DNA of 64,000 nucleotides, taken from assembly GCF_041886205.1 (NCBI RefSeq), contig NZ_CP169029.1; one strand, 5' to 3'. Below are positions 9,001-12,000 of this stretch, piece after piece. The position numbers are program-made. Source of the DNA: Escherichia coli (lineage in GTDB: Bacteria > Pseudomonadota > Gammaproteobacteria > Enterobacterales > Enterobacteriaceae). How positions within the stretch are numbered: position 1 is the stretch's first letter; the number at the start of each line of letters is the position of its first letter.

Positions 9001-12000
9001 CTTTACACCGGGCTGGTATTGTTGGCGAGCCTCGCCACCTGTACTTTCGCCTACCCGTGGCTTGAAGGCTATAACGACAACAAGGACGAGTTCTACCTGT
9101 TGGTGTTAATTGCCGCGCTGGGCGGGATCCTGCTGGCGAATGCCAACCATCTGGCGTCTCTGTTCCTCGGTATCGAACTGATCTCTTTGCCGCTGTTTGG
9201 CCTGGTCGGTTACGCTTTCTGCCAGAAACGTTCGCTGGAAGCCAGTATCAAATACACCATCCTTTCTGCCGCAGCGTCTTCTTTCCTGCTGTTTGGTATG
9301 GCGCTGGTGTATGCGCAGTCTGGCGACCTGTCGTTTGTCGCGTTGGGTAAAAACCTTGGCGACGGTATGCTCAACGAGCCGCTGTTGCTGGCAGGTTTCG
9401 GCCTGATGATTGTTGGCCTCGGCTTCAAACTCTCTCTGGTGCCGTTCCACCTGTGGACGCCAGACGTATACCAGGGCGCGCCTGCGCCGGTTTCCACTTT
9501 CCTGGCGACGGCGAGCAAAATCGCTATCTTCGGTGTGGTGATGCGTCTGTTCCTCTACGCACCGGTGGGTGACAGCGAAGCGATTCGCGTGGTGCTGGCG
9601 ATTATCGCCTTTGCCTCTATCATCTTCGGTAACCTGATGGCGCTGAGCCAGACCAATATCAAACGTCTGCTCGGTTACTCATCTATCTCTCACCTCGGTT
9701 ATCTGCTGGTGGCGCTGATTGCGCTGCAAACTGGCGAGATGTCGATGGAAGCGGTAGGGGTTTACCTTGCCGGTTATCTGTTCAGCAGCCTAGGCGCGTT
9801 CGGCGTGGTCAGCCTGATGTCCAGCCCGTATCGTGGCCCGGATGCTGATTCCCTGTTCTCTTACCGCGGTCTGTTCTGGCATCGTCCGATCCTCGCGGCA
9901 GTGATGACGGTGATGATGCTGTCTCTGGCCGGTATCCCGATGACGCTGGGCTTTATCGGTAAGTTCTACGTGCTGGCGGTCGGTGTCCAGGCACACTTGT
10001 GGTGGCTGGTGGGTGCTGTGGTTGTCGGTTCGGCAATCGGCCTCTACTACTACCTGCGCGTGGCGGTGAGCCTGTACCTGCACGCACCGGAACAACCGGG
10101 TCGCGATGCACCGTCAAACTGGCAGTACAGCGCGGGCGGTATCGTGGTGCTGATTTCTGCACTGTTGGTACTGGTGCTGGGTGTATGGCCACAACCGCTG
10201 ATTAGCATTGTGCGGTTAGCAATGCCGCTGATGTAAGCTATCAGTTTGTAAGTCAGAAAGCCGCCGACATGTTCGGCGGTTTTTTTTGGTGCCCTGACAC
10301 CATCACCCAACAATAACCGTCAGCGCATGATTCCCCTGTCGCAGCATACGTCGATACGCGCTAATCAGCTTTTCCATATCAAGCATGATCGAGGCAAAGA
10401 GTTGCCCCTCTAACTCTTCTGAAAAGGTCACTCCCGGATAAATCTCCATTTCATTGAGTCGCTTAATGGAAAACTGTTTACGCAGCTCACTTCGATCCAG
10501 TGATTCCAGTCGGTCGATTGTCGCGGCTAACTCCTGATTCCAGGTCAATCCCAGGAAGCCATCTATGCCATCTTCGAGGCTGTGTTCACCAAGCACGGCA
10601 CGACTCAGCGGATCATTCTTCGCGGGATCAAAAGCAGAGGTGCCTGTCAGCCCAAAGTGTAAAAAATCCCAGCGTTTGTCAATATCCAGTCGGCGTAATC
10701 CTGAAAGCGTGTCATGAATATTGTCCATTAAGGGTTTTTCAGTAGACTCAAGCAGTTGGTTAATCTTTTCTGAGTCAATTTCTGCAAAATAGCCAATCAT
10801 TCCCATTTATTTTTCCTCCATTGAATTTCATGTTTCGCATCTTAAAACAGACGAGGGAAAATAAAATGTGCATGTCGCTTTTTCTGGATCCGCCTCGAGA
10901 AATTTTTATTATTTACTGTTGTATAACAAGTTTATAACACCATCCACCACCTGAGCCATTTTCTGATAATTCAATCTGTCTGCGGTATCACCGGGCAAGT
11001 GGTATTGTTTATTAAGATAAAAAGCGGTGTCAGTAATCATTACGGCGGGAATATCGTGTTGCCAATAATTCAGGTGGTCAGAGAAATCAATACATGGAAT
11101 AAACCCTGGGGCATTCATAGAATAAACAGATAAATCCCGGGATGACAACAATGCCGCTTTTACCTGACGAACGGCGTTGATATCCTGCATTCTGCCGACC
11201 ACGGCAATAAAGTCTCCCCGATCGGGATAAAGCCAGGACATTGCCGGGTAAGGGTAATCCTGGCTTCCAGGCGCAGAGTCGTAATAGCCAATCGGGGACG
11301 CCCTGCGCGGTAACTCTGGCACCGCTACTGACAAAGACCTCTTTTATATACTCTACGGACCTATTCAGATTATCAATATTGCCGGCATTACGTGGATGCA
11401 CAGTTTGTGTAAGATAACGAACTGTTTTTTCTAATTGCTCAGGACTTACGTGTCGGGGCATTGGCGATAATGCAGTGACCCAGGGTTGGTAAAAAATAAT
11501 CAGAGGGAGTGAAAATAGAAATAATATAACAAAAGGAAAATTTTTTCATTTGTAAATTATCAATAAAAGGCGTTATTTTATCATTATTTATAATGAGTTA
11601 TGAGTGTTTATTTTATTACGGTTGTTAGATCTATACAAAAAGTATCTTTTACAGTGGGTTCGCTATTTTTAAAAAGCAATTTCTATGAGAAATAAAAATA
11701 TAATTATGTTATTTATTGGCAGATTGAATTGACAAGTGGGGCAGAAATCTGAGGGTAAGAAAAGTCAGCAACTACAATCCACTACATCAACAGACCAGCA
11801 ATCGCGTGCCGCGATACGCTGGAAATACCCGTAGATTGAACTGGCAGATGGTGTGACTGGCATCAGTCAGTGATGACTTTTTAGCAAACTATGTCCGACC
11901 AGTCAGCATATTTGCTGACTGGTCGAATTAATTAACAATGATGTTAACTTACTCTTTTGCCTGATGCTCTATTTTTGGGTTGTGAGTGTTTTATTTCTAA

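What the first reader, a model, noticed from the sequence alone, without database searches (positions are those of the whole stretch)
10237..11943. Remodelled junction between nuoN and elaD: yfbNOP and yfbK absent, yfbL decayed
In the K-12 gene order as I recall it, nuoN is followed by yfbP, yfbO, yfbN, yfbM, yfbL, yfbK, then elaD. Here nuoN and its terminator abut yfbM directly, leaving no room for yfbNOP. Between the yfbL remnant and elaD there is only about 0.4 kb of AT-rich non-coding DNA where yfbK (about 1.7 kb) would sit. No IS element, recombinase gene or obvious scar is present at either junction. This is a compact example of strain-specific gene loss or gain next to a core operon.
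Basis: partly seen in the sequence, partly recalled or inferred. Interest (0 to 1): 0.45.

Follow-up and report, generated by a model that had tools for sequence, protein, structure and literature searches.

The report
Common E. coli yfbK/yfbL decay haplotype
The stretch between nuoN and elaD is an ordinary, widespread version of a variable E. coli region, shared by more than a third of complete genomes including O157:H7, in which two non-essential genes (yfbK, yfbL) are old deletion remnants and the K-12 genes yfbNOP were probably never present.

Summary
In the window, nuoN and its terminator sit 66 bp from an intact yfbM, yfbL is a pseudogene, and yfbK is gone.

The interpretation needs three corrections.

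1. It is not strain-specific. Of 5,426 complete E. coli genomes, 4,214 have the same direct nuoN-yfbM junction, 2,578 the same yfbK-deletion junction and 2,032 the same yfbL-deletion junction. O157:H7 has the same layout.

2. yfbNOP was most likely not lost here. The same 15-bp spacer fills the empty site in four other E. coli genomes checked (O157:H7, B2 strain SF-088, two more) and, with two substitutions, in a divergent Escherichia lineage. yfbNOP is a 40%-GC block found in about 18% of genomes, nearly all at least 99% identical. K-12 probably gained it.

3. There are scars. yfbK survives as three pieces left by two in-frame deletions of 1,323 and 213 nt. yfbL carries a 326-bp deletion that removes half of its M28 peptidase domain, plus a 5-bp deletion near the start.

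One unexplained detail: the yfbL-yfbK intergenic region and the yfbK 5' remnant belong to an allele class only about 72% identical to that of genomes with intact yfbK.

Ordinary; low interest.

The parts
8779..10236 (+). nuoN, last gene of the nuo operon, intact (485 aa)
   Evidence: ORF list. 98.2% identical to K-12 nuoN over the aligned 1,284 bp. Annotated as nuoN in the identical RefSeq genome.
10255..10287 (+). nuoN intrinsic terminator: GC-rich hairpin followed by T8
   Evidence: RNA fold -18.6 kcal/mol, z -3.5, 0 of 200 shuffles fold as well. Conserved in all genomes compared. The simple consensus scan did not list it.
10288..10302 (.). 15-bp spacer GGTGCCCTGACACCA between the terminator and the yfbM stop codon. 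This is the empty (probably ancestral) site where K-12 carries the 2.56-kb yfbNOP block.
   Evidence: The spacer is identical in L004, L005 (B2 strain SF-088) and O157:H7. It has one substitution in L003 and two in the divergent Escherichia L007. The junction is shared by 4,214 of 5,426 genomes.
10303..10806 (-). yfbM (DUF1877 family), intact, 167 aa
   Evidence: ORF. 98.2% identical to K-12 at the DNA level. Annotated as a YfbM family protein.
10909..11549 (-). yfbL pseudogene (M28 metallopeptidase). The 3' part (10912-11292) encodes K-12 residues 197-323 in one frame. The 5' part (11294-11539) encodes residues 6-87 in another frame. The original ATG is at 11549-11547.
   Evidence: tblastn of K-12 YfbL. 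Pfam PF04389 covers residues 95-317 of the intact protein, so its N-terminal half is missing here. RefSeq marks it 'frameshifted' in the identical genome.
11293..11294 (.). Junction of the 326-bp internal yfbL deletion (K-12 L001 8122-8447, residues 88-196). The length is not a multiple of three, and there is no useful microhomology.
   Evidence: The same junction occurs in 2,032 of 5,426 genomes, including O157:H7 and O103:H2.
11535..11541 (.). 5-bp deletion in an A/T run just after yfbL codon 3: a second, independent frameshift
   Evidence: Alignments. O157:H7 has a 4-bp gap and strain F11 a 7-bp gap at the same run. L003, with intact yfbL, has none. The run is therefore decaying independently in each lineage.
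11550..11684 (.). yfbL/yfbK divergent intergenic (promoter) region, 23-31% GC, of a deeply divergent allele class
   Evidence: Composition. Segment identities and distance matrix.
11685..11813 (+). yfbK 5' remnant (K-12 CDS nt 1-132: signal peptide, lipobox and Q-rich linker), with an in-frame TGA at codon 16
   Evidence: tblastn. blastn 77% identical to K-12. Coordinates.
11814..11834 (+). 21-nt internal yfbK fragment (K-12 CDS nt 1456-1476, 'IRWKYPQ', with CAG changed to TAG), stranded between two deletions
   Evidence: 19 of 21 nt match K-12. Deletion 1 is nt 133-1455 (1,323 nt). Deletion 2 is nt 1477-1689 (213 nt). Both are multiples of three.
11835..11873 (+). yfbK 3' remnant (last 12 codons plus the stop)
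   Evidence: tblastn gives 11 of 12 residues identical. The surrounding blastn match, which starts at 11834, is 96% identical to K-12.
11896..11925 (.). Perfect 13-bp inverted repeat with a 4-nt loop: the shared terminator hairpin of the convergent yfbK and elaD genes, retained
   Evidence: the repeat finder pair I1. Folds at -25.9 and -26.8 kcal/mol on the two strands, z about -8.5. Present in K-12 too.
11944..13164 (-). elaD (CE-clan deubiquitinase), intact, 406 aa, 35% GC
   Evidence: ORF. 95.6% identical to K-12. Annotated as elaD. GC measured on the K-12 copy.

Best explanation
The window carries one of the major natural haplotypes of the variable nuoN-rbn region of E. coli. It is the product of four old events, none involving a mobile element here.

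(1) The ancestral Escherichia layout was nuoN | yfbM-yfbL | yfbK | rbn, with nuoN's terminator 15 bp from the yfbM stop codon. The window keeps that ancestral junction. yfbNOP is a low-GC block that was inserted there, replacing about 17 bp, in the lineage that includes K-12. That step is inferred, not shown.

(2) elaD (35% GC) was inserted between yfbK and rbn in non-B2 E. coli. The window has it.

(3) yfbK was destroyed by two non-homologous in-frame deletions of 1,323 and 213 nt. These left nt 1-132, 21 internal nt and the last 39 nt. Point mutations then added stop codons.

(4) In a probable subset of yfbK-less genomes, yfbL lost 326 bp. That removes residues 88-196, the N-terminal half of the M28 domain, and shifts the frame. 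Small indels have since accumulated in the A/T run after codon 3.

Nothing in 10237-11943 functions as a system. What remains active is the nuoN terminator, yfbM, and the hairpin shared with elaD. The rest is decaying pseudogene DNA that spread, by descent and probably by homologous recombination through the conserved flanks, to more than a third of the species.
For: Structure:
- blastn against K-12 and against genomes of each haplotype.
- Alignment A1.
- tblastn of the K-12 proteins.
- Exact deletion coordinates and the yfbL junction in several genomes.

Frequency among 5,426 complete genomes:
- nuoN-yfbM junction: 4,214.
- yfbNOP present over at least 80% of its length: 946, with 985 of the 1,015 matching genomes at 99% identity or more.
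- yfbK present: 2,513.
- yfbK-deletion junction: 2,578.
- yfbL 326-bp segment present: 3,297.
- yfbL-deletion junction: 2,032.

Intermediate haplotypes exist:
- No yfbNOP, yfbK and yfbL intact: L004.
- yfbK deleted, yfbL intact: L003.
- B2 strain without elaD, yfbK and yfbL intact: L005.
- In 40 records evenly spaced down the ranking, none combined an intact yfbK with the yfbL deletion.

Polarity:
- The empty site has the same spacer in four other E. coli haplotypes and, with two substitutions, in the divergent Escherichia L007.
- yfbNOP is 39.8% GC and elaD 35.4%, against 51.3% for the window.
- elaD is absent from E. albertii, L006, L007 and B2. This matches published elaD distributions (PMC1847702, PMC12575377).

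yfbK loss recurs independently:
- A different deletion in L007.
- An IS1 insertion in strain CUPF12.

The region is dispensable: strain TUM17668 lacks yfbM through elaD, with IS copies in their place.
Against: - Polarity of yfbNOP rests on one outgroup junction (L007). The E. albertii contig ends before nuoN.
- Escherichia sp. MOD1-EC7003 (L006) carries a diverged yfbN (93.5% aa identity) next to yfbM. About 27 E. coli genomes carry 60-90% identical versions of the block. The block is therefore older than the K-12 clade, and ancestral presence followed by one spreading deletion is not excluded.
- Nesting of the yfbL deletion inside the yfbK-less genomes is inferred from counts and a sample of 40 records, not from a full cross-tabulation.
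- The 72% identity of 11531-11813 to intact-yfbK alleles is not explained by simple decay in place.
Confidence: 0.85

Rival explanations
1. yfbNOP was ancestral and was deleted in the window's lineage, as the first reader's 'gene loss' reading implies. On this view the empty site seen everywhere is a single old deletion that spread by recombination.
For: A diverged yfbN lies next to yfbM in Escherichia sp. MOD1-EC7003. About 27 E. coli genomes hold 60-90% identical versions of the block. The block therefore has some depth in the genus.
Against: The identical or near-identical 15-bp spacer fills the empty site in the other E. coli haplotypes checked and in the divergent L007 lineage. No yfbNOP fragments remain. 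The block is 39.8% GC. 985 of 1,015 copies are at least 99% identical, which is the pattern of a recent, clonally restricted acquisition.
Confidence: 0.12
2. The yfbK-less allele did not arise in place from the E. coli yfbK allele. It was imported by homologous recombination from an unsampled, divergent Escherichia lineage. The import either already carried the deletion or was a diverged full-length allele that was later deleted. This explains the interspecies-level divergence of 11531-11813. It concerns the origin of step 3 and is otherwise compatible with the main explanation.
For: In 11531-11813 the yfbK-less genomes are 92-98% identical to one another but only 70-73% identical to intact-yfbK E. 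coli alleles. That is as far as E. albertii (69-71%). The flanking yfbL and elaD segments are 93-97% identical across the same genomes. With L007 and E. albertii as outgroups, changes fall about equally on both branches (27-31 against 24-28), so this is not one-sided decay. Divergence starts just upstream of the yfbL start codon and ends at the deletion breakpoint.
Against: No donor was found, and L007 and E. albertii are no closer than about 80%. The segment is short (about 290 columns), AT-rich and partly low-complexity coding sequence, so alignments and polarisation are noisy. This region evolves fast between species in any case: K-12 against E. albertii is 74.5% here but 92% in yfbM.
Confidence: 0.35
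3. The remnant region has taken on a new function, such as a small RNA, a regulatory region for elaD or yfbM, or a mini-protein from the in-frame yfbK remnant. It is kept for that reason.
For: Both yfbK deletions are multiples of three. RefSeq annotates a 44-aa hypothetical ORF over the remnant in strain B1.H1.18. The haplotype is very common.
Against: The window has stop codons at yfbK codon 16 and at the retained internal fragment. The yfbK ATG is mutated in L003, O157:H7 and strain F11. Indels differ between lineages. No Rfam family reached its threshold. Within the yfbK-less class this segment is less conserved (92-98%) than its flanks.
Confidence: 0.03
4. The arrangement is an assembly or sequencing artefact, for example collapsed or mis-joined contigs.
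For: None found.
Against: Thousands of independently assembled complete genomes share each junction. One is 100% identical over 2.8 kb.
Confidence: 0.01

Closest known systems
E. coli O157:H7 nuoN-yfbM-(yfbL pseudogene)-elaD-rbn arrangement (for example strain SRCC 1675, NZ_CP015023.1)
   Same: Same gene order. Same 15-bp nuoN-yfbM spacer. Same 326-bp yfbL deletion junction, one SNP apart. Same yfbK deletion. The yfbL remnant is annotated 'frameshifted'.
   Different: About 4.5% nucleotide divergence over the 2.8 kb. O157:H7 has a 4-bp rather than 5-bp indel after yfbL codon 3 and has lost the yfbK ATG.
E. coli K-12 MG1655 b2269-b2276 (elaD, yfbK, yfbL, yfbM, yfbN, yfbO, yfbP, nuoN)
   Same: Same flanks (nuoN and its terminator, yfbM, elaD, the convergent terminator hairpin) at 96-98% identity.
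   Different: K-12 has the 2.56-kb yfbNOP block, a full yfbK (575 aa) and a full yfbL (323 aa). Its yfbL/yfbK intergenic region belongs to the other allele class, about 72% identical.
elaD presence/absence polymorphism (Catic et al. 2007, PMC1847702; Front Microbiol 2025, PMC12575377)
   Same: It is a known variable gene in the same region. It is present in K-12 and intestinal pathotypes and absent from B2/ExPEC strains. The window has it intact.
   Different: Neither paper mentions yfbK (no occurrences in either). No paper found discusses the yfbK, yfbL or yfbNOP variation itself; the few that name these genes do so in passing, judged by titles and abstracts.
Ordinary bacterial pseudogene decay by small non-homologous deletions (established knowledge of the deletional bias in bacterial genomes)
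   Same: Internal deletions with 0-1 nt of microhomology, followed by frameshifts, stop codons and lineage-specific indels in homopolymer runs.
   Different: Both yfbK deletions happen to be in-frame. The remnant sits in an unusually divergent allele class.

Membership tests
Widespread E. coli haplotype with yfbK and yfbL deleted (as in O157:H7) | nuoN terminator joined to the yfbM stop by the 15-bp spacer, with no yfbNOP | tested here: met
   Spacer identical to O157:H7, L004 and L005. The 251-bp junction query is covered by at least 80% in 4,214 of 5,426 genomes.
Widespread E. coli haplotype with yfbK and yfbL deleted (as in O157:H7) | Same compound yfbK deletion junction (5' remnant, 21-nt fragment, 3' remnant) | tested here: met
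   The 271-bp junction query is covered by at least 80% in 2,578 genomes. The same pieces appear in L003, which has the deletion.
Widespread E. coli haplotype with yfbK and yfbL deleted (as in O157:H7) | Same 326-bp yfbL deletion junction | tested here: met
   The 60-nt junction query is covered by at least 80% in 2,032 genomes. Junction sequences are shown.
Functional M28 metallopeptidase gene (yfbL) | Uninterrupted reading frame with a complete Peptidase_M28 domain (PF04389, residues 95-317 in K-12 YfbL) | tested here: not met
   Residues 88-196 are deleted and the frame is shifted. A further 5-bp deletion follows codon 3.
Functional vWA-domain lipoprotein gene (yfbK) | Full reading frame including the vWA domain (roughly residues 213-406 by the NCBIfam matches) | tested here: not met
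   Only nt 1-132, 1456-1476 and 1690-1728 of the 1,728-nt K-12 CDS remain, and two in-frame stops are present.
Mobile-element-mediated rearrangement (IS, integrase or genomic-island excision) | IS element, transposase or integrase gene, tRNA/att site, or flanking direct repeats at the junctions | tested here: not met
   No such ORF in 10237-11943. No flanking direct repeats. At most 1 nt of microhomology at the breakpoints. Other strains do carry ISEcB1 or IS1 here, but the window does not.
Anti-phage defence island at the nuoN-yfbM site (considered for the K-12 yfbNOP block) | Proteins matching known defence-system models | tested here: not met
   YfbN, YfbO, YfbP, YfbM, YfbL and YfbK gave no PADLOC match at E <= 0.01. 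YfbN, YfbO, YfbP and YfbM also gave no NCBIfam match.

The most novel reading that the evidence does not exclude
E. coli holds two deep allele classes at the yfbL-yfbK intergenic region and yfbK 5' end, about 28% apart, which is as far as E. albertii. One class is always tied to the yfbK deletion. Each class is present in roughly half of the complete genomes. The most novel reading is that the yfbK-less allele entered from an unsampled Escherichia lineage, and that presence or absence of the yfbK (vWA lipoprotein) / yfbL (M28 peptidase) pair is maintained as a long-lived, possibly balanced, polymorphism rather than drifting to loss.
Probability: 0.2. Interest if true: 0.3.

Novelty: already known. 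Interest (0 to 1): 0.08.

Why it matters
It matters little. The result is a clean worked example showing that K-12 is a poor proxy for the ancestral E. coli gene order. At this locus K-12 carries a minority insertion (yfbNOP) and also retains two genes (yfbK, yfbL) that about 40-50% of the species has lost.

It also shows that yfbK, yfbL and in some strains the whole yfbM-elaD block are dispensable in nature. That is of modest use for annotating these genes, whose function is unknown.

The only point that might repay a population-genetic look is the deeply divergent allele class tied to the yfbK deletion.

Tried and rejected
- Mobile-element cause. No IS, recombinase or repeats occur at the junctions. 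IS insertions and an IS-associated loss exist only in other strains.
- Hidden RNA gene in the AT-rich stretch. The Rfam scan at E <= 1 gave only three sub-threshold chance matches.
- yfbNOP as a defence island. No PADLOC or NCBIfam match.
- yfbK-yfbL-yfbM as a conserved functional module, which would explain stepwise loss. In 27 loci from distant taxa that encode YfbL relatives (32-50% aa identity), none had a YfbK or YfbM relative within 9 kb. This was rejected for lack of support.
- Relaxed-selection decay as the sole cause of the 72% identity in 11531-11813. Polarised substitutions are symmetric between the two allele classes, so one-sided decay does not fit.
- Literature on this junction. 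The full-text searches for yfbK/L/M and yfbN/O/P returned nine listings covering seven papers. By their titles and abstracts none is about the variation.
- The genome-contig scan with YfbL found close relatives only in three other Escherichia lineages. It did not return an E. coli species representative or E. fergusonii, and the E. albertii contig ends before nuoN. Outgroup evidence for the nuoN-yfbM junction therefore rests on one lineage.
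Full report
**What is in the sequence**

ORF listing and direct reading give the following layout.

| Window coordinates | Strand | Feature |
|---|---|---|
| 7243-8772 | + | nuoM |
| 8779-10236 | + | nuoN |
| 10255-10287 | + | GC-rich hairpin plus T8, the nuoN terminator (fold -18.6 kcal/mol, z -3.5) |
| 10303-10806 | - | yfbM, intact |
| 10909-11461 | - | two overlapping out-of-frame ORFs, together the broken yfbL |
| about 11500-11900 |. | AT-rich stretch, 23-31% GC in 11500-11700 |
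| 11944-13164 | - | elaD, intact |
| 13350-14285 | - | rbn |
| 14332-14793 | + | elaA |

The region matches E. coli chromosomes. Over 2.8 kb it is 100% identical to strain wlxctx60 (NZ_AP045833.1, from a Japanese black bear). There RefSeq annotates the same genes and marks the yfbL remnant 'frameshifted'.

MG1655 is annotated elaD (b2269), yfbK, yfbL, yfbM, yfbN, yfbO, yfbP, nuoN (b2276). blastn of the window against that K-12 stretch gives four colinear blocks.

| Window | Matches in K-12 | Identity |
|---|---|---|
| 9001-10284 | nuoN and its terminator | 98.2% |
| 10302-11293 | yfbM and the 3' part of yfbL | 97.6% |
| 11294-11813 | 5' part of yfbL, the intergenic region, first 132 nt of yfbK | 81% |
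| 11834-14000 | last 40 nt of yfbK, elaD and rbn | 96.8% |

Three K-12 segments are absent from the window:
- L001 9440-12000 (2,561 bp): yfbN, yfbO and yfbP.
- L001 8122-8447 (326 bp): inside yfbL.
- L001 6036-7591: most of yfbK.

**Anatomy of the lesions**

*yfbL.* tblastn of K-12 YfbL places residues 197-323 at 11292-10912 in one frame and residues 6-87 at 11539-11294 in another.
- The 326-bp deletion removes residues 88-196 and shifts the frame.
- Pfam places the M28 domain at residues 95-317 of the intact protein, so its N-terminal half is gone.
- A second lesion, a 5-bp deletion in the A/T run after codon 3, shifts the frame again.
- At that same run O157:H7 has a 4-bp gap and strain F11 a 7-bp gap. 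A genome with intact yfbL has none. This is ongoing, lineage-specific decay.

*yfbK.* It is not cleanly absent. Three fragments remain, all in one reading frame.

| Window | K-12 CDS positions | Note |
|---|---|---|
| 11685-11813 | nt 1-132 | TGA at codon 16 |
| 11814-11834 | nt 1456-1476 ('IRWKYPQ') | 19 of 21 nt identical; CAG changed to TAG |
| 11835-11873 | nt 1690-1728 | last 12 codons plus the stop |

- Two deletions occurred, of 1,323 and 213 nt. Both are multiples of three.
- Microhomology at the breakpoints is 0-1 nt.
- The 13-bp perfect inverted repeat at 11896-11925 is the hairpin shared by the convergent yfbK and elaD genes. It is retained.

**How common it is**

Each junction and each missing segment was searched against 5,426 complete E. 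coli genomes.

| Feature | Genomes |
|---|---|
| 251-bp nuoN-yfbM junction, covered at least 80% | 4,214 (78%) |
| yfbNOP, covered at least 80% | 946 |
| yfbNOP, any match | 1,015, of which 985 at 99% identity or more |
| yfbK present | 2,513 |
| Window's yfbK-deletion junction | 2,578 (47.5%) |
| 326-bp yfbL segment present | 3,297 |
| 60-nt yfbL-deletion junction | 2,032 (37%) |

Carriers of the yfbL junction include O157:H7 and O103:H2 strain 12009. The O157:H7 strain SRCC 1675 has the same overall layout. The arrangement is a major haplotype, not a strain-specific event.

**Haplotype series**

All intermediate forms exist.

| Haplotype | Example |
|---|---|
| yfbNOP, yfbM, yfbL, yfbK, elaD | K-12 |
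| No yfbNOP; yfbL and yfbK intact; elaD present | strain 94_0962 |
| yfbK deleted; yfbL intact | strain B1.H1.18 |
| yfbK deleted; yfbL broken | the window, O157:H7 |
| yfbK and yfbL intact; no elaD | B2 strain SF-088 |

- In 40 records spaced evenly down the ranking, none combined an intact yfbK with the yfbL deletion.
- Together with 2,578 against 2,032, this fits yfbK being lost first and yfbL second. The nesting was not fully cross-tabulated.
- Other strains have ISEcB1 inserted in the nuoN terminator/yfbM spacer. One strain lacks yfbM through elaD, with IS copies in their place. The whole block is therefore dispensable.

**Polarity**

A scan of one genome per species with YfbL found close relatives only in three other Escherichia lineages. 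The next best matches were 32-50% identical proteins in unrelated environmental taxa.

| Locus | Lineage | Gene order found |
|---|---|---|
| L006 | Escherichia sp. MOD1-EC7003 | rbn-yfbK-yfbL-yfbM-yfbN, then the held sequence ends; no elaD |
| L007 | filed as E. coli, but yfbL only about 83% identical | rbn-(a different yfbK deletion)-yfbL-yfbM-nuoN; no elaD, no yfbNOP |
| L008 | E. albertii | rbn-yfbK-yfbL-yfbM, then the contig ends; no elaD |

- The empty nuoN-yfbM site carries the spacer GGTGCCCTGACACCA in the window, O157:H7, L004 and L005 (B2 strain SF-088). It has one substitution in L003 and two in L007.
- In K-12 about 17 bp of this spacer region are replaced by the 2.56-kb block.
- The block is 39.8% GC and elaD 35.4%, against 51.3% for the window.
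- The most economical reading is that the window keeps the ancestral junction and that yfbNOP was gained in the K-12 lineage.
- The diverged yfbN in L006, and about 27 E. coli genomes with 60-90% identical copies, show that the block is older than the K-12 clade. I therefore keep 'ancestral and lost once' as a rival, at about 0.12.
- The absence of elaD from B2 agrees with published distributions (PMC1847702, PMC12575377).

**An unexplained detail**

Window 11531-11813 covers the yfbL/yfbK intergenic region and the yfbK 5' remnant.
- It is 92-98% identical among yfbK-less genomes.
- It is only 70-73% identical to intact-yfbK E. coli alleles.
- That is about as far as E. albertii (69-71%) and farther than L007 (about 80%).
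- Neighbouring segments are 93-98% identical across the same genomes.
- With L007 and E. albertii as outgroups, substitutions fall about equally on both branches (27-31 against 24-28). One-sided decay after the deletion does not explain the gap.
- Divergence begins just upstream of the yfbL start codon and stops at the deletion breakpoint.
- A plausible cause is import of this allele from an unsampled Escherichia lineage, but no donor was found. The segment is also short, AT-rich and fast-evolving. I give this about 0.35 as the origin of the yfbK-less allele.

**Negative results**

- No Rfam family reached its threshold in 10000-12200.
- No repeats of note flank the junctions.
- There were no PADLOC matches for any of the six K-12 proteins, and no NCBIfam match for YfbN, YfbO, YfbP or YfbM.
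- No YfbK or YfbM relative lies next to YfbL relatives in 27 distant loci.
- No paper found by the full-text searches appears, by title and abstract, to discuss this variation.

**Verdict**

It is wrong in three respects: the arrangement is not strain-specific, yfbNOP is most likely a K-12-lineage gain rather than a loss here, and there are clear deletion scars. This is ordinary pangenome variation that is already visible in thousands of annotated genomes. Interest is low.

Noticed in passing
window 45828-49664: Relative to K-12, about 3.6 kb of extra DNA (45828-47538 and 47795-49664 have no K-12 match) lies between glpQ and inaA, where K-12 has only the yfaH pseudogene. It holds an AT-rich 368-aa ORF of unknown function (46015-47121, -), a full-length LysR-type regulator (47551-48429, -) and a 396-aa MFS-like transporter (48581-49771, +).
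   Followed up: no
window 11531-11813: The yfbL/yfbK intergenic region plus the yfbK 5' remnant belongs to an allele class about 72% identical to that of intact-yfbK E. coli. That is as distant as E. albertii. Substitutions are roughly symmetric on both branches. The origin is unknown.
   Followed up: partly
window 11685-11873: Both yfbK deletions (1,323 and 213 nt) are multiples of three, so the three remnants stay in one frame. Stop codons have since appeared. The chance of both being in-frame is about 1 in 9.
   Followed up: partly
L037 5593-6950 and L036 9605-11359 (site equivalent to window about 10270-10300): In some E. coli strains ISEcB1 (IS3 family) is inserted into the nuoN terminator/yfbM spacer. 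In strain TUM17668 an ISEcB1 fragment plus IS1A replace everything from yfbM to elaD.
   Followed up: partly
L007 8614-9009: A divergent Escherichia lineage (record filed as E. coli SCPM-O-B-8794) has its own, different yfbK deletion that keeps residues 525-572. It lacks elaD. This is an independent loss of yfbK.
   Followed up: partly
L006 11300-11671: Escherichia sp. MOD1-EC7003 carries a yfbN homologue (93.5% aa identity) next to yfbM, with a different junction sequence from K-12. The yfbNOP block therefore exists in at least two diverged forms at the same site.
   Followed up: no
window 37900-38110: Small rearranged or repeated matches to K-12 around the rpnE/ypaA boundary: overlapping 93-bp blastn matches at 87-92% identity. 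They look like variation in a short repeat array.
   Followed up: no
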